From a virus: a stretch of 62,562 bases of DNA. Shown piece after piece: positions 45,001-51,000 of the stretch. The stretch lies in the UHGV virus genome UHGV-0106067. The stretch is one strand, 5' to 3'. Position numbers: made by a program. Each line of letters starts with the position of its first letter. Within the stretch, counting starts at the first letter, position 1.

Positions 45001-48000
45001 GCACCGGAGCCAGCGTCAGTTGTACCGCAGTTCCCGGAGTACGGAGTGTTACCTCCAGAGACGCCGGACCTGGCGGACCTTCTTCACCATAATCTGAGAC
45101 AAAGGTTTCCGTATAAAACCGGGTTTCATCATCATTCGGGTTATCGTCAGAAACATCACCGCCCTGCTGAACAGTACAGACAGGAGCTGTCGTCGGCGCG
45201 GGGATCCCCAGACGATACGATGATGTCGGGTGATTCCCGTCCCCTTTTGTGGCAATGGTCGCATCCGTCACTTTAGGAAAACGCCCGTCAGTGTAGTAAA
45301 TACGCCCGTGGGGGTCCTGAGCGATCGGACTGCGGATCACATCCACCACATCCGGCCATGCAAACCAGAAATCGTCACGGTAATGAAAAATTGTTTTTGG
45401 CTTAATTGTGAATGTTTTCTCAACCCCGGATATCTGACGTTCTGGTGTAATAACACCAAACCGGAAATGGCAGTCCTCCGCCAGTACAGCGGAATGCTCG
45501 GGCAGCATGGATGTCACAACGCGCGGCATCATCCCACGCATCGTGGTGATATCGATATAGGGCATAGAAATTCCTTTGACTGCTTCAGGCTTAAAAATCA
45601 GGGGATTTATGATGGAATTCGCTAAAATCGCGATCGGTATCACTGCAACAGAGTGTTGCTATGATATTCTGGACAAGACGCAACAACTCACTAATTGTTA
45701 TCAAACGTCTTTCTTCTGGTCGGGGAGCATGTTGCTCCCCCTTTTTTTACTGCATTACCACCGCAGCTGTAGCAACAAGAGCCAGCACACCACCAAGCCA
45801 CACAAACAGCATGAAGCACATTGCGCCTGTGGTGTAACGTTTTCTTCCGATTGTCCGGCATCTCTCTTTATTCATCATCTGCACCTTCTGAACTATCAGA
45901 AGATTCTGCGCATCCGGCAGGACCACCATCAGGCACCAACAAGCCGTCTGACGCTCACACCATACAGCCCGTTTTTCGCCATTCCCGTATACAGAAAGGT
46001 ATTCACCGTCTTCGTGTGGATACCCATTTCACTGGCAAGGCGACAGGGTCTCGACTGGCGGTAGACATAACCGAACATCACCACCATCTCTGACATCGTC
46101 AGCGGGCGGGCAGCACTGTTATACGTCCAGACGCCGTTGTGTATGGCATCACTTATCTGCTCACCATCACGGAGCAACTCCGCATCCAGTTGCAGAAAAT
46201 GACGCCCCTGGAACATACAGCGCATCAGCCTGCCCAGCAGGCCATCACTAATTATCAGCCAGGATTCGTCAAAGTCCGGGATATAACGGCGGTTCTCCGG
46301 CAGGAAAAACTCCCTCGCCAGTATCACACTGTGTTCCTTCAGTAACGCCTGCAGACCATACTCCAGATAGCGATTCCTGGTAGCCAGAATCACCTTCATC
46401 GCAGCACCTTCCTGTTTTTTATGCCCCATGAAAAACGGCAGACCAGAGTCCTGCGCCTGCCGTCATACTTCATGTCACCTTCAGCAATTAAAACTCGAAG
46501 TTCACACCAACATTCCAGGAGGCATCGCCATCACTGAATGCCACGCCTGCTTTCGCTGCGGTCTGCTCGTTGAAGCGGTAACCCACACCCACCGCCAGTG
46601 CCTGCTGGTCGCTGTAACCACCAACCGCTGCCGTGGCGTTGAATTTACCCACACTGTACGGCTGGAACAGACCTGTCAGGGCCGCAGACTGTGCTGCTGC
46701 TCGTTTCATTTCCTTATGGTTTTCATTAATCTGGCGCTGCTGGCTGTCCAGACGTGCTGAATGTTGCTGCAGCGTACGGGTATTGGCTGCAATCGCCTTG
46801 CTGTTTTTCTCAATGGATTGCGTGTTACGGGTGACACGGCCATCAATGGCACCAACTGCTGCATCAATACGGTCAGTACGACCAGACAGGGCTACCAGAC
46901 CATCGTTAACAGAAATGGTGTTCTTTGCACCTTCTGCACGGGTCAGGGTGCCGTCAGAACTCACACCAACAGTGGTGCGATCTTTGATGGATTTATCCAG
47001 ATCAACAATAGCATCGCTTACACGCACATTTTTTGGAGCTGTAACATCATGTGTATAGCTGCCATCCTCTTCCTGATAAATGGTTGTATCTGCCTGAATG
47101 GCTGCAACTACATTTTTTACAGACTCTCGCTCCACTGAGCCTGTTTCATCAAGGGTAATGTTACCGTTAGCATCGATAGCAAAAGTTGTGTCTTTATTCA
47201 ACCTATCTATATTGGTAACGATGCGGTTGTATTCCTGCAGAACACCTGGGCCTTGTTTAACAGCAGCAAGCGCGGCATCAGAGTTTCCCCCTGAACGAAC
47301 CGCAGACACATACGCTGGCGCTGTTTCAGATGTAATCTTAGAAGATATATCATCTTTCAAAGCTAATACTTTATCTAAATCATTTTTATTTATTTTTTTC
47401 AAAGACTCTAATTTTAAACTCTCTGAGTAAACAGGAAATGATATTTTATTAGCTATATCCTGTAACTCTTTTTTAAAATCAGGACTATCGACATTATATT
47501 TAAATTTTTTTATCAACGCAGTATACGCATTTTCCATCTCCTTTTTATTATATGACATGACGCTTCCTGTTGCTGTATTAATAGCACCTAAAACCTCTTT
47601 TCCTTGTGCGTCTACTATCTTGGCACCTTCCCCATCCTTGTAAAATTTTACGATGTAATCGCTGCCTTTAACTGGGATATCTAAAGCCATGGCCCCAGAA
47701 CTCACCAGCATCAGTCCGGCAACAGCAGATGAAAGAATAGTCTTTGTAAATTTCTTGCTCATGTGGTATACCCTATAAAATTATCTGTATACAAATAAAA
47801 CAGTTCAACATCGGATATATAAAGAAAATCTGATGTCTCGCCGCTCTCATGAGCTTACTCCTGAAGAAATTCCGAATTTTAATATGAAGTTTTTCGGAAT
47901 TTCCTTACTATAACGTCGGTGATATCACGTCCGCGAAGGGATATCCGCATTACGACTGGCCTGCCACTTATTCTGTCTCTTTATTCATCAACAATTTGTA

Positions 48001-51000
48001 TACGGTTACATCTTTAATTGTGAAGTTAGTCACAAAAAGAAGAAAGTCCAATAATCAAATTGTGCTTAACTGTTTACATCAGCACAATCTGATGACCATT
48101 GAATGACCATTGAATGACCATTGAAGGACGCACTAAATTATTTTCAGCAATCCCTCAGCCTACGAAAATTCTGTATCCCCTGAATGTTTAATTTACACTC
48201 TTTTTATGCAATTATTCTTTCGACTATAAAAACACCACTATCTCATGTATGACCTTGGGGAGCGTGCCGTCTCCCCGTTTTTTCGCTTACAGTTTCATGA
48301 CGACTTTCAGTTTCAGGAATCAGCAGTTACCATGCAATACGAAAATTCTGTATTGCATCCGCGCCCTCATCTCAATATCTTTGTCGCCGGATAAAAATAA
48401 CTATCAACCACAAGTATCATGCTCTCGGGGAGCACGCACTCCCCAGTTTTTTATCTTTGACAGGGGTGAAGGAGGCCGTTGCATCTCCTTTAATTATCAT
48501 TGCCAGATTATTTCCTCGACCTGAGTATTCTTTATTTAGCCATAGCTTTGTAGCAAGGGGCTGGAGCGCCCCTCTTTTTTTCACCTGTCAGCCATGCCGA
48601 CCTTATACGCCAGTATAGCTTCCGCATCACCCAGCGCTTCAATCTCTTTTTTCATCGTGCGCTGTCTGACATGAATTTCCAGACCTTTGGTAAACATCGC
48701 CTGCTCTGCAGCAGCACTCAGAGCAATCAGTGTTTCAGCGTCCATCGGTACGTCATTATTGTCCGCATCCGTCCAGAAAAACTGCTCCGGCAGTTTCCCC
48801 GCTTTCGCTGCCGCCACCGACGGCTCAAGACGCATCTGCGTTGACTTCCCGTAGTCCCATTTACGCCCATTGTGCTCAAACGTGTAGTTCGCCGCTTCCA
48901 TCGCATTACGCCAGGCGTTGATCCCGGCGGTTTTGAGTTCTCTGGCTTTTTCCGGGCTGATGGATGGCTGTACATATTCTGCAATTTCACCGGCCTCTCC
49001 TCTCAGACAAGCGGCATAAATATCCCGCCCGTATGCTTCGGTATCGCTGGCTGTTGCAGTGAAAGGAACCGCCTGCTCAATGTGCTCAAACTTCACCATG
49101 CAATTCACAGCAGTGTGATCTTTATCTGCCCATTGCGGATTGCTTATTTTTTTCCACATTCATGTCATCTCCTGTCTGTCAGTATGCGCGCTGGAACAGC
49201 CCGATGCCTTCATTGTCATTTGTCGACGTAATTTCATTACACACCATCCATGAGCCCGGAACTGAGGATAGGTTGCCGTCAATGCCATCGGTGTTAGCTT
49301 TCATATAGTTCCCGCTTGCATCTTTGATTATGGCGCATCGCTTAAGGCGTGAACCCTGTACAGTTTCTCCTGGCTGATAGGTTCTGCCGATGTCGGTTGT
49401 ATACGGGGCTAGTGCGGCAATAATGTATGTTCCGATGCTGTAAATTTCCCCGGGTACCAGCCTTCCGGTTGGCCCTTGTGGTCCCTGTGGTCCGGTTTTA
49501 CCATCCAACCCGGGCAGTCCCATCGGCCCTCGCCCTCCGGCAGGGCCCTGTGGCCCCGTTTTACCCGCAGGACCTGCCGGACCAACCGGCCCCGGAACAC
49601 CCTGTGCCCCCGCTGGTCCCCTTTCACCTCGTGGCCCTGCCGGGCCTGCATCACCTTTGGGACCAGCTGCACCAGCCGGTCCCTGTGGGCCTGCGGGCCC
49701 CACTGCTCCCGCAGGTCCTGTCGCCCCCTGCAGCCCACGGAGGCCCTGCTCACCTTTCTGTCCTGCAGGCCCCTGAGGTCCGGGTTCACCGCGCTCACCT
49801 TTCGGACCTGTGGGACCTGCCGGTCCTTGCTCGCCCCTGTCACCTTTCGGTCCAGGTATGCTTTCTCCCGACGGGCGGGTTGTCGCAACCTCTTCTGCCT
49901 TCTGTTTCGCTGCCCTGGCCTCATCCATTGCCGCCTTCACAGCTTTCGGTGTGGCTGCCTTCGTTTCATCATCACTGTCCGTTGCGCTGCTTAACTGCAC
50001 AATTCCCTTCTGTGCCGTCGTCGCATCTGCCACATTTGCTGCGCTGCCCGCCGGGCCTGGCTCCCCACGAGGTCCCTGAGGTCCAGCTTCGCCTCGTTCA
50101 CCTTTCGGACCTGCCGGACCCGGTTCACCTCTCTCTCCGGCGGGGCCCTGTAATCCTTGCGGACCACGTTCCCCGGGTTCCCCTTTCGGCCCCGCAGGTC
50201 CGGTCTCACCGCGCTCTCCCTTTGCTCCTGCCGGCCCCGGCTCACCTCTCGGACCAGTATCCCCCTTTGGTCCCTGAGGCCCCCCCGGGTCTCCTTTTTC
50301 GCCTCTGGCCCCGGTTTCACCACGCGGCCCCATTGCTCCCTGTGGCCCGGTCGCACCACGTGGGCCAGATGGCCCTGTTGCGCCAGCTGGCCCCTGCACT
50401 CCCTGAGGTCCCCGTTCTCCTGTATCACCTTTCTGGCCCGGTATGCCCTGAGGTCCGCGCTCTCCCTGCTCACCTTTCTCCCCACGCGGACCCGCCGGAC
50501 CTGTTTCACCACGAGGACCAGCATCACCTTTCGGCCCTGTATCGCCTTTAGGTCCTCGTGCATTCTCAGCCATACGTCTGGCTTCTTCAGCACTAACCGT
50601 AGCAGCCTCAGCACGTTTAAGAACGTCTCCGGCGGCTTCCTGAGCCACTCTGGCGGTTTCAGCATGTTGTCTGGCCTCTTTAGCGTCAGCTGCCGCTGCC
50701 TTTTCAGACTCACCTGCCCGGGTCGCCGCCTCTGCAGCCTCACTGGCTTTTTGTGCAGACTCCGTCGCTTTGCTGGTCGCAGCCTTCGCGCTTTCTGATG
50801 CAGTCTTCGCACTGGCAGCAGCGCTTTCCTTCGACTGTGAAGCCTGATTATTTTTCACCGCCGTGTCTTCGTTCAGACGACGAATCGTGGCAAGGTCATC
50901 CGCCACATTGTTCTGTATCTGCCGGAAATCTGTCAGCAGTTCTCCGGGTATGCTCACCTCAACAAGACTGCGGCGTAACAGCATATTGAGCGTCACCGTA

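What the first reader, a model, noticed from the sequence alone, without database searches (positions are those of the whole stretch)
45929..48580. Adhesin moron inside the tail cluster: YadA/Eib-like trimeric autotransporter plus LuxR-family regulator, preceded by an 800-bp AT-rich region with a 3x 11-bp tandem repeat and three plus-strand terminator hairpins (two forming related repeated units)
- The 424-aa protein has a signal peptide, a coiled-coil stalk and a textbook YadA C-terminal anchor (...NVGVNFEF). It is transcribed with the tail genes but has its own long AT-rich upstream region (47763..48580).
- That region contains (ATGACCATTGA)x3 (48092..48124), a candidate regulator binding array.
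- On the opposite (plus) strand there are two related units (48240..48284 and 48410..48453), each ending in a GGGGAG...CTCCCC hairpin plus T-run, and a third hairpin plus T8 at 48556..48581.
- These look like small terminated transcription units (candidate sRNAs/antisense regulators), or bidirectional insulation of the moron from late read-through.
- A small LuxR/GerE regulator immediately downstream suggests dedicated control.
Basis: partly seen in the sequence, partly recalled or inferred. Interest (0 to 1): 0.55.

Follow-up and report, generated by a model that had tools for sequence, protein, structure and literature searches.

The report
Known prophage eib adhesin cassette
This is a copy of the prophage-borne E. 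coli immunoglobulin-binding adhesin (eib) gene cassette deposited in 2000, here carrying an unnamed EibA-like allele; what I found undescribed in the papers I could read are small features of its upstream DNA and the predicted fold of the gene next to it.

Summary
Window 45747..49159 (minus strand) is the orf-191 / eib / orf-156 / orf-60 cassette deposited for the E. coli ECOR-9 prophages P-EibA, C and D (94.7% DNA identity to AF151091).

- **Adhesin.** The 424-aa protein has a YadA anchor (Pfam 1.4e-16). Its last ~170 residues are nearly identical to EibA and EibD, including the Asp needed for IgG Fc binding. It has no YadA head repeats, like EibA. The exact protein is already in NCBI.
- **ORF-156.** It matches no Pfam or NCBIfam model. 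A confident AlphaFold model (pLDDT 90) matches NarL/FixJ-type regulators, and its C-terminal four helices match NarL-C and GerE. "LuxR-like" therefore holds at fold level only.
- **11-bp array.** It varies from 1 to 3 copies between alleles, with 3 only here, and is absent from other Eib-type upstream regions. It is not a required operator array.
- **Plus-strand terminators.** They are real and non-random: all four antisense terminators of the 36-kb late region lie in or at this cassette. They cannot stop late read-through. The first is missing or decayed in half the alleles; only the one beside the tail-fibre-assembly gene is kept everywhere.

Whether these terminators insulate, end small RNAs or are relics is open. 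Interest is low.

The parts
48581..49159 (-). orf-191-type DUF4376 gene (tail-fibre-assembly-like); the first gene of the cassette
   Evidence: Pfam DUF4376 at 1.3e-19 and PHROG 1141, tail fibre protein. It is annotated ORF-191A/D in AF151091 and AF151675. This 3' end occurs in only 33 of 5426 complete E. coli genomes; in the 27 that match the whole query it lies beside the EibA-type upstream region.
48556..48581 (+). Plus-strand intrinsic-terminator-like hairpin T3 (AGGGGC-TGGAGC-GCCCCT followed by a T-rich tail, CTTTTTTT), directly abutting the orf-191 stop codon
   Evidence: -13.9 kcal/mol. The stem is kept while the loop differs in the most divergent alleles L019 and L006. Non-homologous plus-strand terminators sit at the same position in P-EibD (L003 3152-3169) and GER2 (L008 6302-6321).
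48467..48492 (+). Weaker hairpin 2b (AAGGAG...CTCCTT)
   Evidence: In L019 and L006 it becomes an 8-bp stem, AAGGAGGC/GCCTCCTT, followed by AAATTTTTATT. These are the same alleles in which T2 gains a mismatch.
48427..48453 (+). Plus-strand terminator-like hairpin T2 (GGGGAG-CACGCA-CTCCCC followed by AGTTTTTT)
   Evidence: -11.6 kcal/mol, z -2.3. It is present in all EibA-type alleles. L019 and L006 carry an uncompensated G-to-T change in the stem.
48256..48284 (+). Plus-strand terminator-like hairpin T1 (GGGGAGCGTGCCGTCTCCCC followed by GTTTTTT)
   Evidence: It is deleted in P-EibA, L032 and KY176 and degenerate in L005, L020 and L019.
48161..48514 (.). Degenerate tandem duplication of about 177 bp. 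Each unit starts with TACGAAAATTCTGTAT and carries one GGGGAG hairpin.
   Evidence: the 16-mer occurs twice, against 0.03 expected by chance; 64% identity between units, 0 of 500 shuffles as good.
48092..48129 (.). 11-bp tandem repeat ATGACCATTGA, 3.5 copies; a copy-number polymorphism
   Evidence: Tandem Repeats Finder. Copy number is 1, 2 or 3 across 12 aligned alleles and fetched loci, with 3 only here. The closest complete genomes are 11 bp shorter across this region.
48054..48093 (.). 13-nt inverted repeat (ATCAAATTGTGCT / AGCACAATCTGAT) directly abutting the 11-bp array
   Evidence: I10. It folds as a hairpin and is invariant in all EibA-type alleles.
47866..47903 (.). Perfect 11-bp inverted repeat GAAATTCCGAA-N16-TTCGGAATTTC, about 105 bp upstream of the eib start codon
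   Evidence: I15; z -3.8. By position it corresponds to the stem_loop feature annotated in AF151091. An AT-rich inverted repeat sits at the matching position in P-EibD.
47780..47808 (-). Predicted eib promoter (TTGAAC-17-GATAAT) overlapping the palindrome TTATTTGTATACAGATAA. TTTGTATACA is the conserved core.
   Evidence: 9 of 12 match; prediction only. The TTTGTATACA block is conserved across the otherwise diverged EibA-type, EibD and GER2 upstream regions, and more weakly in L043 (GATTGTACA).
46488..47762 (-). eib allele, 424 aa: signal peptide, EibA-like passenger without YadA head repeats, Eib stalk, YadA anchor
   Evidence: The exact sequence is in NCBI as a 'YadA C-terminal domain-containing protein'.
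46432..46462 (-). Sense-strand intrinsic terminator after eib (CGGCAGGC...GTCTGCCG followed by TTTTT)
   Evidence: -17.5 kcal/mol, z -4.5. It matches the stem_loop annotated downstream of eibA and eibD.
45929..46399 (-). orf-156: a small protein with an alpha/beta N-terminal domain and a LuxR/GerE-type four-helix HTH
45747..45929 (-). orf-60: a small protein with a C-terminal hydrophobic helix. The real start is probably near 45878 (about 43 aa).
   Evidence: PHROG 9340 matches residues 18-60 only. Annotated ORF-60A/D. Its C-terminal end is shared with phage phi296, which lacks eib.
45722..45748 (+). Plus-strand terminator-like hairpin (GGGGAGCATGTTGCTCCCC followed by a T-rich tail, CTTTTTTT) directly after the orf-60 stop
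   Evidence: -15.1 kcal/mol, z -3.6. It is present in six other fetched eib loci (L002, L003, L004, L008, L019, L023) and in phi296. In the lambda-like prophage L005 the same hairpin directly follows a convergent dinI-like gene and carries a compensatory C:G to T:A change.

Best explanation
**What it is.** The region is a copy of the known eib moron cassette: orf-191, an 818-bp control region, eib, orf-156 and orf-60. Here it sits in the tail-fibre end of a 933W-like (Sepvirinae) phage genome. Related phages hold other small genes at this spot; phi296 has cor there.

**The adhesin.**
- Shown: the eib gene encodes a trimeric autotransporter with a Sec signal peptide, an EibA-like passenger without the YadA beta-roll head, the Eib stalk and a YadA anchor.
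- The stalk is nearly identical to EibA and EibD and keeps the Fc-binding Asp in the motif RID-A-AVG.
- Inferred: it is displayed on the lysogen's surface, binds IgG Fc non-immunely, and promotes aggregation and serum resistance as other Eibs do.
- The gene is a mosaic. An AT-rich 5' half encodes a variable passenger type common in E. coli; a 51%-GC 3' half is Eib-specific.

**Transcription (inferred).**
- eib is read on the minus strand from a promoter within about 200 bp of the ATG. That stretch holds the only blocks conserved between the different Eib-type upstream regions: the TTTGTATACA palindrome and the inverted repeat at 47866-47903.
- Most transcripts stop at the strong sense terminator at 46432-46462.
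- orf-156 begins about 35 nt after that terminator with no room for its own promoter. It is probably expressed by read-through.

**ORF-156.** It has a LuxR/GerE-type HTH behind a receiver-like domain that lacks the phosphorylation pocket. I infer it is a phosphorylation-independent DNA-binding regulator of the cassette. Its target is more likely the conserved promoter-proximal palindromes than the 11-bp array.

**11-bp array.** It is a slippage-type copy-number polymorphism (1 to 3 copies).

**Plus-strand hairpins.** They are intrinsic terminators for antisense (plus-strand) transcription only. My preferred reading (about 45%) is confinement: they hold transcription that starts in the AT-rich control region and runs away from eib, so it does not enter the tail-fibre genes antisense. 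The terminator after orf-60 blocks antisense transcription entering from the other side; in lambda-like prophages it directly follows a convergent dinI-like gene and reads as its terminator. T1 and T2 are partly decayed duplicates.
For: **Identity of the locus**
- 94.7% DNA identity to P-EibA, 95.4% to P-EibD and 97.9% to phage PhiR5_2, with the same gene order and annotated stem-loops.
- 99.3% identity to E. coli strain SW070917.

**Adhesin**
- YadA_anchor at 1.4e-16.
- Matches to solved EibD stalk structures at 2.9e-31 and 6.4e-27.
- The C-terminal ~170 residues are nearly identical to EibA and EibD.
- D300 aligns with the EibD/EibG Asp whose mutation abolishes Fc binding (PMC13534694).
- No YadA_head repeats, whereas the EibD control has them.
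- GC content shifts within the gene.
- The N-terminal passenger type is found in more than 100 E. coli protein clusters.

**Moron character**
- Sense terminator with z -4.5.
- phi296 carries cor at the same position.

**ORF-156**
- (details in the parts list).
- Synteny with an autotransporter gene holds at 71% protein identity.

**11-bp array:**

**Terminators**
- Their existence and clustering.
- A plus-strand terminator abuts the orf-191 stop in three non-homologous upstream regions.
- The hairpin after orf-60 follows a convergent dinI-like gene and shows a compensatory change.

**Conserved promoter-proximal blocks:**. In addition, 168 bp upstream of eibG was enough for plasmid complementation.
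Against: - No transcript data exist for either strand. The eib promoter match is only 9 of 12, and it would leave a leader of about 11 nt.
- A 55%-identical homologue stands alone beside the hpa genes with no adhesin gene. The family is therefore not strictly dedicated to eib.
- From my memory of Sandt, Hopper and Hill 2002 (not held in the library), the only demonstrated activators of eib are IbrA and IbrB, not ORF-156.
- The alleles differ by less than 15%, so conservation of the hairpins has little statistical power.
- T1 is dispensable and T2 tolerates a mismatch. Both fit decay as well as they fit function.
Confidence: 0.85

Rival explanations
1. The plus-strand units are genuine small-RNA genes. 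One or more terminated transcripts of roughly 50 to 520 nt would run from a promoter near 48027-48055 or from unit-internal promoters. They would act on eib, on the tail genes or on host targets.
For: - Four canonical hairpin plus U-run terminators lie on the non-coding strand and are clustered.
- A plus-strand promoter-like site, TAGTCA-17-AATAAT, lies at 48027-48055. It would give an RNA of about 220 nt ending at T1.
- Long U-tails are typical of Hfq-dependent small RNAs (general knowledge).
- At least one plus-strand terminator next to orf-191 is kept in all Eib locus types.
Against: - Rfam finds nothing, even at E of 10 or less.
- Promoter-like counts are no higher than in shuffled sequence: 6 against 6.8.
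- I found no convincing promoter inside unit 1 or unit 2 (direct reading).
- T1 is deleted or decayed in about half of the alleles and T2 gains an uncompensated mismatch.
- The segment is found in no context other than EibA-type loci.
Confidence: 0.2
2. The plus-strand terminators are relics without a present function. They would be terminators of genes that once converged on the cassette ends, carried along and duplicated during the illegitimate recombination that built the moron.
For: - The hairpin after orf-60 directly follows a convergent dinI-like gene in lambda-like prophage contexts and reads as its terminator. It persists here, where no convergent gene exists.
- T1 and T2 resemble that hairpin: 71% identity over 28 nt (D1).
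- The 177-bp duplication is decaying (64% identity) and T1 is lost in several alleles.
Against: - Three non-homologous upstream regions each keep a plus-strand terminator right at the orf-191 stop.
- In L019 and L006, weakening of T2 coincides with strengthening of hairpin 2b, and the T3 stem is kept while its loop changes.
Confidence: 0.3
3. The 11-bp array is functional. It would be either the operator array of ORF-156, or a contingency repeat whose copy number tunes eib expression. Upstream repeats tune some other adhesin genes in this way (from memory; examples under Closest known systems).
For: - Copy number is polymorphic: 1, 2 or 3.
- The 11-bp unit is about one helical turn, so the rotational phasing of flanking sites is kept (inference).
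- The array abuts an invariant 13-nt inverted repeat.
- Upstream repeats are known to tune other adhesins (my own knowledge, not tested here).
Against: - P-EibA, whose deposited record calls eibA an immunoglobulin-binding protein, has a single copy.
- The array lies 330-367 bp upstream of the ATG, outside the roughly 200 bp conserved between Eib types.
- It is absent from the EibD, GER2 and L043 upstream regions, which all keep an ORF-156 homologue.
- Only 1 to 3 copies are seen, far fewer than in typical contingency tracts.
Confidence: 0.12

Closest known systems
eib cassette of the ECOR-9 prophages P-EibA, P-EibC, P-EibD and P-EibE (GenBank AF151091, AF151674-6; Sandt and Hill 2000)
   Same: - Same gene order: orf-191, eib, orf-156, orf-60.
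- Same upstream region as P-EibA, 90-95% identical.
- Same stem-loops upstream and downstream of eib.
- Same position beside the tail-fibre genes.
- The C-terminal ~170 residues of the adhesin are nearly identical.
   Different: - The passenger, residues 27 to about 250, is of another type. It is barely alignable with EibA and only 66% identical overall to the PhiR5_2 protein.
- This copy has 3 copies of the 11-bp unit where P-EibA has 1.
- It has an extra 115 bp containing T1.
EibA (392 aa), the Eib protein without the beta-roll head
   Same: - No YadA_head repeats.
- RIDAAVG motif with Asp and Ala.
- Same stalk, saddle and anchor.
- EibA-type upstream region.
   Different: The N-terminal domain sequence is not recognisably similar. 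Whether it has the same N-terminal fold described in PMC12511318 was not tested.
Moron, as defined for the lambdoid phages HK97 and HK022 (Juhala et al. 2000; from my own knowledge)
   Same: - An extra gene block between conserved late genes.
- Deviant base composition.
- Its own downstream intrinsic terminator.
- Present or absent, or replaced, among relatives; phi296 has cor at the same position.
   Different: - It carries three genes plus a putative regulator.
- It is also bracketed by terminators that face the antisense direction.
NarL/FixJ-type regulators and orphan LuxR-type regulators of E. coli (RcsB, EvgA, NarL C-terminal domain, GerE)
   Same: The predicted fold of ORF-156 is an alpha/beta domain followed by a four-helix HTH. 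The best structural matches are FixJ, RcsB, EvgA, NarL-C and GerE.
   Different: - No Pfam GerE or Response_reg match.
- The N-terminal domain has only four strands.
- It lacks the acidic pair and the conserved Lys of receivers.
- Only 156 aa.
- No demonstrated function.
Upstream repeat tracts that tune adhesin expression (Neisseria nadA TAAA, Moraxella uspA2 AGAT, Haemophilus hmw 7-bp repeats; from my own knowledge)
   Same: A polymorphic tandem repeat upstream of an autotransporter-type adhesin gene.
   Different: - Only 1 to 3 copies of a long (11-bp) unit.
- It lies far from the likely promoter.
- No expression data.

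Membership tests
Eib (E. coli immunoglobulin-binding trimeric autotransporters) | C-terminal YadA-type beta-barrel anchor | tested here: met
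   Pfam PF03895 at E 1.4e-16, 60.7 bits against a cut-off of 22.7. Match to PDB 2lme at 1.5e-18.
Eib (E. coli immunoglobulin-binding trimeric autotransporters) | Eib-type stalk (saddle plus coiled coil) carrying the IgG Fc-binding Asp | tested here: met
   Residues 246-356 match EibD structures 2xqh and 2xzr. The stalk is nearly identical to EibA and EibD. D300-A301 in RIDAAVG align with EibD D387-Y388 and match the Asp-Ala pair reported for EibG (D391-A392). The D391A mutant loses Fc binding (PMC13534694).
Eib (E. coli immunoglobulin-binding trimeric autotransporters) | Prophage location in the orf-191 / eib / orf-156 / orf-60 arrangement | tested here: met
Eib (E. coli immunoglobulin-binding trimeric autotransporters) | Non-immune binding of IgG or IgA | not testable with these tools
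   Needs an immunoblot with human IgG Fc.
YadA-like adhesins with a beta-roll head | YadA_head (left-handed parallel beta-roll) repeats | tested here: not met
   No PF05658 hit at E of 0.01 or less. The EibD control gives 2.7e-13, and EibA also lacks it.
LuxR/GerE-type HTH regulators (ORF-156) | Match to the Pfam GerE profile (PF00196), or to any other curated sequence model | tested here: not met
   No Pfam family at E of 10 or less and no NCBIfam family at E of 1 or less. A profile search against PDB sequences gives only sub-threshold hits, E 0.1-0.29. All four are LuxR-type HTH proteins, including GerE.
LuxR/GerE-type HTH regulators (ORF-156) | Four-helix C-terminal HTH fold | tested here: met
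LuxR/GerE-type HTH regulators (ORF-156) | Sequence-specific DNA binding and control of a target promoter | not testable with these tools
   Needs EMSA, ChIP or genetics.
NarL/FixJ response regulators (ORF-156) | Receiver domain with the phosphorylation pocket: acidic pair after beta-1, Asp at the end of beta-3, Thr/Ser after beta-4, Lys after beta-5 | tested here: not met
Moron | Own terminator, deviant composition, and presence or absence among related phages | tested here: met
   Sense terminator at 46432-46462 with z -4.5. GC is 38-39% against 49.5% for the window. phi296 carries cor at the same position.
Moron | Own promoter active in the lysogen | tested here: inconclusive
   There is only a 9-of-12 consensus match at 47808-47780. 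In the literature, 168 bp upstream of eibG sufficed on a multicopy plasmid.
Small-RNA gene (plus-strand units) | Promoter plus intrinsic terminator bounding a conserved non-coding transcript | tested here: inconclusive
   The terminators are present. Promoter matches are weak and no more frequent than in shuffled sequence. Rfam finds no family. Unit 1 is not conserved.
Contingency (phase-variable) repeat | Tandem repeat whose copy number differs between strains | tested here: met
   1, 2 or 3 copies among 12 aligned alleles and further loci.
Contingency (phase-variable) repeat | Copy number changes expression of the linked gene | not tested
   Needs reporter constructs.

The most novel reading that the evidence does not exclude
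The control region of EibA-type eib loci may encode a plus-strand, terminator-bounded RNA that diverges from eib. Its 5' part would carry the variable 11-bp array and its read-through would be capped by T2 and T3. Together with the never-characterised LuxR-fold protein ORF-156, expressed by read-through of the eib terminator, it would form a self-contained circuit setting adhesin level in the lysogen. That could underlie the reversible static-versus-shaken regulation reported for EibG (PMC4352079).
Probability: 0.12. Interest if true: 0.5.

Novelty: already known. Interest (0 to 1): 0.2.

Why it matters
Eib proteins are prophage-borne adhesins. They give E. coli, including LEE-negative Shiga-toxin-producing strains, non-immune IgG/IgA binding, aggregation or chain formation, and serum resistance. 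The locus type has been known since 2000, so finding another copy adds little.

The modest value lies in three points that I did not find in the papers I could read.
- **ORF-156.** The conserved downstream gene has a confident LuxR/GerE-type HTH fold. That makes it a testable candidate for the still unknown cis-linked regulator of eib.
- **11-bp unit.** The upstream unit is a copy-number polymorphism.
- **Antisense terminators.** The cassette is bracketed by, and contains, the only antisense-facing intrinsic terminators of the whole late region.

Each point can be checked with a simple experiment. None changes how these systems are understood.

Tried and rejected
- **Rfam, gathering threshold on the whole window and E of 10 or less on 45500-48800.** Nothing in the region; only chance snoRNA-type hits.
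- **Pfam at E of 10 or less and NCBIfam at E of 1 or less for ORF-156 and ORF-60.** No hits. PHROGs gives only "unknown function" families.
- **Foldseek against afdb50.** The library was not available.
- **Sandt and Hill 2000 and Sandt et al. 2002.** Not held under the ids I tried: two PubMed ids, and a PMC id recalled from memory for the 2000 paper. Statements about IbrAB rest on my memory.
- **Papers on eib regulation that I could read** (PMC4352079, PMC12511318, PMC13534694 and its preprint). Term searches (promoter, regulator, upstream, orf, LuxR, ibrA) found no mention of ORF-156, promoter mapping or upstream RNAs.
- **Does the window's own PAPS-reductase-like ORF (21946..22824) and its neighbours form an IbrA/IbrB pair?** No NCBIfam support and no match at all for any neighbouring ORF. 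Dropped.
- **Does the distal upstream region occur in any other context?** No. Distant-mode BLAST finds it only in EibA-type loci, in 27 of 5426 E. coli genomes and 8 phage records. The orf-191 3' end has no eib-free context either.
- **16-mer scan of viral contigs.** It returned mostly chance single hits. Only loci with two hits 177 bp apart, or with BLAST support, were used.
- **Plus-strand ORFs 48245..48394 and 48249..48524** (auto-annotated as hypothetical proteins in PhiR5_2). Rejected as genes: they start inside or run through the terminator hairpins and have no ribosome-binding site (direct reading).
- **Hairpin z-scores on short windows.** Weak for T1 and T3 (-1.1), so I relied on the terminator-pattern statistics instead.
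- **Structure model of the passenger.** I built an alignment (A2), but the truncated query misaligned with shorter homologues. I ran no further search on it.

Full report

Yes. ORF 46488..47762 (minus strand) encodes 424 aa, and the ORF after it ends at 45929. Pfam places a full-length YadA_anchor at residues 366-424 (E 1.4e-16, 60.7 bits, cut-off 22.7). The N-terminus [28 protein letters not shown] is a typical Sec signal peptide (direct reading).

- **Upstream region.** The 818-bp region 47763..48580 is 39.4% GC against 49.5% for the window. The low GC runs on into the 5' half of the gene (37.8%), while the 3' half is 50.9%.
- **11-bp repeat.** Tandem Repeats Finder reports ATGACCATTGA, 3.5 copies, at 48092..48129.
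- **Terminator-like sites.** The consensus scan of 45500..49300 finds 12 sites against 3.3 +/- 2.3 in shuffles. The four best are all on the plus strand, at 45722, 48256, 48427 and 48556.
- **Strict whole-window scan.** My own rule required a stem of at least 6 pairs, at least 5 G:C pairs, and at least 6 T in 8 bases. It finds seven plus-strand sites in 62.5 kb. In the late region (26-62.5 kb, all genes on the minus strand) there are four antisense-facing sites, and they are exactly these four. The cluster is therefore not a composition artefact.
- **Related units.** Each unit begins with the 16-mer TACGAAAATTCTGTAT (2 matches against 0.03 expected). The units share 113 of 177 identical positions, and 0 of 500 shuffles scored as well.

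**2. What is it?**

It is the eib cassette. Megablast against phage records gives these matches:

| Record | Coverage | Identity |
|---|---|---|
| Escherichia phage PhiR5_2 | 78% | 97.9% |
| P-EibA, AF151091 | 69% | 94.7% |
| P-EibD | 48% | 95.4% |
| P-EibC | 46% | 93.8% |

The deposited annotation of the Eib records reads orf-191, stem_loop, eib, stem_loop, orf-156, orf-60, in the same order and orientation as here. The annotated downstream stem-loop is the sense terminator at 46432-46462 (-17.5 kcal/mol, z -4.5).

- **Distribution.** Among 5426 complete E. coli genomes the upstream region occurs in 27, at 71 places, often several per genome. The closest whole-cassette match is strain SW070917 at 99.3%.
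- **Host phage.** The window itself looks like a complete, circularly permuted 933W-like (Sepvirinae) phage genome.
- **Variable slot.** In the related phage phi296 the same position, between the tail-fibre adhesin gene and the next structural gene, holds cor instead. In lambda-like prophages the cassette follows J, stf and orf-191.

**3. The adhesin**

- The last ~170 residues are nearly identical to EibA and EibD. They match the solved EibD stalk fragments 2xqh and 2xzr (E 2.9e-31 and 6.4e-27) and the YadA anchor 2lme.
- A 2026 paper reports that EibG D391A loses IgG Fc binding (PMC13534694). That residue pairs with EibD Asp and Tyr388. In the alignment the motif is RID-Y-AVG in EibD and RID-A-AVG here (D300-A301). 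EibA has the same Ala, and the paper reports Ala392 at that position in EibG. The paper's "D378" does not fit the numbering of the alignment. Its statement that the EibG equivalents are the adjacent D391 and A392 implies EibD D387; this is my inference.
- There are no YadA_head repeats. The EibD control has them (2.7e-13), while EibA, the PhiR5_2 protein and the GER2 adhesin lack them.
- Residues 27 to about 250 are barely alignable with EibA. Overall identity to the PhiR5_2 protein is 66%.
- This passenger type is widespread in E. coli: 103 clusters at E of 1e-3 or less, 40-100% identical. All are called YadA-like or YadA C-terminal domain-containing, and one is called "putative immunoglobulin-binding protein".
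- The consensus of 26 aligned homologues joins this passenger to a shorter stalk without the Eib saddle and Fc segment. The gene is therefore a mosaic, consistent with the GC step inside it.
- The exact 424-aa sequence is already in NCBI (QKP99820.1 and others; 13 contigs).

**4. ORF-156, the "LuxR-like" gene**

Sequence profiles do not support the label. There is no Pfam family even at E of 10 or less, no NCBIfam family, and only PHROG 6585 "unknown function". Homologues are found only in E. coli and go down to about 50% identity.

The alignment shows a nearly invariant C-terminal motif, LTMSEMVVMF...LA.EMGI..KTVNTFLY.G..KNG. It reads like the LuxR HTH signature.

| Test | Result |
|---|---|
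| AlphaFold2 model from the alignment | pLDDT 89.8, pTM 0.85; four beta-alpha units followed by four helices |
| Foldseek against the PDB | The top 37 hits are all NarL/FixJ-family or VpsT-type regulators, each a receiver domain plus a LuxR-type HTH: FixJ, RcsB, EvgA, DesR, VpsT, StyR, LiaR, VraR (best E 2.8e-4, probability 1.0) |
| Family profile against PDB sequences | Four sub-threshold hits (E 0.1-0.29), all LuxR-type HTH proteins including GerE |

One UniRef entry already names the identical sequence "LuxR family transcriptional regulator". The receiver phosphorylation pocket is not present: there is no acidic pair after beta-1, only four strands, and no conserved Lys, although Asp52 at the end of beta-3 is nearly invariant.

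So it has the fold of an orphan LuxR-type regulator, but it is not a demonstrable member of the Pfam family or of the phospho-accepting response regulators.

Linkage to an autotransporter gene holds in P-EibA and P-EibD, in GER2, and in a locus where the regulator is 71% identical and the adhesin 56% identical. A 55%-identical homologue stands alone in an AT-rich island beside hpaBC and a PerC-family gene.

orf-156 starts about 35 nt after the eib terminator (direct reading). Its expression is therefore probably by read-through. This is an inference.

**5. The 11-bp array**

Aligning 12 alleles of the upstream region shows the following:

| Copies | Alleles |
|---|---|
| 1 | P-EibA (L001), PhiR5_2 (L002), L019, L032; L006 and L020 with a variant unit |
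| 2 | EC2 (L004), 2012EL-2448 (L005), L021, L023; L011 with a variant second copy |
| 3 | This window only |

Two partial loci outside that alignment add one more of each kind: L009 has 1 copy and L028 has 2. The best-matching complete genomes are 11 bp shorter over this stretch. The unit is absent from the upstream regions of eibD, the GER2 adhesin and the L043 adhesin, which all keep an ORF-156 homologue.

The array is therefore a slippage-type copy-number polymorphism, not a conserved operator array.

What is conserved between otherwise diverged Eib-type upstream regions lies within about 200 bp of the ATG:
- a TTTGTATACA block about 25-35 nt upstream, part of the palindrome TTATTTGTATACAGATAA, which overlaps the only minus-strand promoter match near the start codon;
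- a CATCAGATTTTCTTTA block;
- an inverted repeat at the position of 47866-47903.

These are better candidates for regulator sites. The second copy of ATTTGTATAC at 47994-48008 is another candidate (I4). In published work, 168 bp upstream of eibG sufficed for complementation from a plasmid.

**6. The plus-strand terminators**

*Orientation.* Each hairpin is followed by T6 to T8 on the plus strand. On the minus (late) strand it is preceded by an A-run and followed by no U-run. The hairpins can end plus-strand transcripts but not late read-through, so "bidirectional insulation from late read-through" is not supported.

*Conservation*:
- T1 is deleted in P-EibA, L032 and KY176 and degenerate in L005, L020 and L019.
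- T2 is present everywhere, with an uncompensated G-to-T stem change in L019 and L006.
- In just those two alleles the neighbouring hairpin 2b becomes an 8-bp stem followed by a T-run.
- The T3 stem is unchanged while its loop differs.

*Other Eib types.* The non-homologous upstream regions of P-EibD and GER2 each carry their own plus-strand terminator abutting the orf-191 stop codon.

*The fourth hairpin.* The one after orf-60 is present in six other fetched eib loci (L002, L003, L004, L008, L019, L023) and in phi296. In the lambda-like prophage of strain 2012EL-2448 it sits directly after a convergent dinI-like gene, where it is that gene's terminator. There it shows a compensatory C:G to T:A change.

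*Other tests.* Rfam has no family here. Plus-strand promoter matches are weak and no commoner than in shuffles, the best being TAGTCA-17-AATAAT at 48027-48055. The distal region occurs in no context other than EibA-type loci.

*My reading.* At least T3 and the orf-60 hairpin are maintained antisense terminators that confine plus-strand transcription at the cassette borders. T1 and T2 are duplicated, partly decaying copies. Whether a discrete small RNA ends at them cannot be decided without RNA data.

**7. Comparison and novelty**

The system is the eib moron deposited in 2000 (AF151091 and related records). It has been studied since for EibD structure and for EibG-mediated chain formation. The allele is unnamed but is already in public databases.

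I found three points undescribed in the papers I could read:
- the fold assignment of ORF-156;
- the copy-number polymorphism of the 11-bp unit;
- the clustering of antisense-facing terminators.

From my memory of Sandt, Hopper and Hill 2002, the only demonstrated activators of eib are IbrA and IbrB, encoded elsewhere in the genome. I could not retrieve that paper. I found no IbrAB-like pair in the window.

**8. Verdict**

The locus is ordinary and already known. Interest is 0.2.

Noticed in passing
window 1..62562: The window looks like a complete, circularly permuted 933W-like (Sepvirinae) lambdoid phage genome of 62.5 kb. Q, NinG, primase and helicase lie on the minus strand at 7-11 kb. A CI-like S24 repressor is at 12321..13034 (+). 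A RecT/YqaJ early operon is on the plus strand. The late genes run on the minus strand from 62 kb down to 26 kb. The closest phage record is PhiR5_2 (61.5 kb).
   Followed up: partly
window 2809..6960: Downstream of Q, where Stx phages carry stx, this phage has a different set of features. They are a sok antitoxin RNA (6786..6960, 118 bits), an N6-adenine methylase (4366..6327), a type I specificity-subunit-like gene (3212..4306), the small RNA STnc100 (2809..3025, 149 bits) and a NanS-p-type esterase (628..2601).
   Followed up: no
window 16002..16891: isrK (61 bits) and a C4 antisense RNA (77 bits) sit directly upstream of a Rha-family gene (16244..16891). This looks like a P1 c4/ant-like or Gifsy isrK-type immunity or anti-repressor module.
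   Followed up: no
window 45650..45748 (+): Upstream of the plus-strand terminator after orf-60 there is an extended -10-like motif, TGCTATGAT (in GTGTTGCTATGATATTCTGG). It is conserved in phi296. It could give an antisense RNA of about 80 nt in the gap between orf-60 and the next tail gene. This rests on sequence reading only.
   Followed up: partly
L005 1961..1998 (E. coli 2012EL-2448): In a lambda-like prophage the hairpin after orf-60 directly follows a convergent dinI-like gene and reads as its intrinsic terminator. Its stem reads GGGGAGT/ACTCCCC instead of GGGGAGC/GCTCCCC, a compensatory double change.
   Followed up: yes
L039/L042 5001..5495: A 55%-identical ORF-156 homologue stands alone after a 1.15-kb gene-free stretch of 31% GC, next to hpaBC. 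DcuA/DcuB gene fragments and a PerC-family gene lie downstream. No autotransporter gene is nearby.
   Followed up: partly
window 47781..47798 and 47994..48008: The near-perfect palindrome TTATTTGTATACAGATAA overlaps the predicted eib -10 element. A second ATTTGTATAC copy lies about 200 bp upstream in inverted orientation. The TTTGTATACA core is conserved in the EibD and GER2 upstream regions and more weakly in L043. It is a candidate operator.
   Followed up: partly
window 49179..51242 (-): The tail-fibre gene has long collagen-like G-X-Y repeats (Pfam Collagen 1.3e-46) and a local GC of 63-70%. This contrasts sharply with the 39% GC eib control region 600 bp away.
   Followed up: no
window 28940..37291 (-): A single 2783-aa ORF lies in the late region. 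It was not analysed.
   Followed up: no
window 21946..22824 (+): A PAPS-reductase-like ORF sits in the early operon. I checked it as a possible IbrA-like activator of eib. It has only weak generic matches, and none of the neighbouring ORFs matched any NCBIfam model.
   Followed up: partly
L003 3116..3184 (P-EibD): On the plus strand of the eibD upstream region a strong Shine-Dalgarno sequence plus ATG (AGGAGGAATAGTTCATG) opens directly into the plus-strand terminator hairpin beside orf-191D. I did not look at it further.
   Followed up: no
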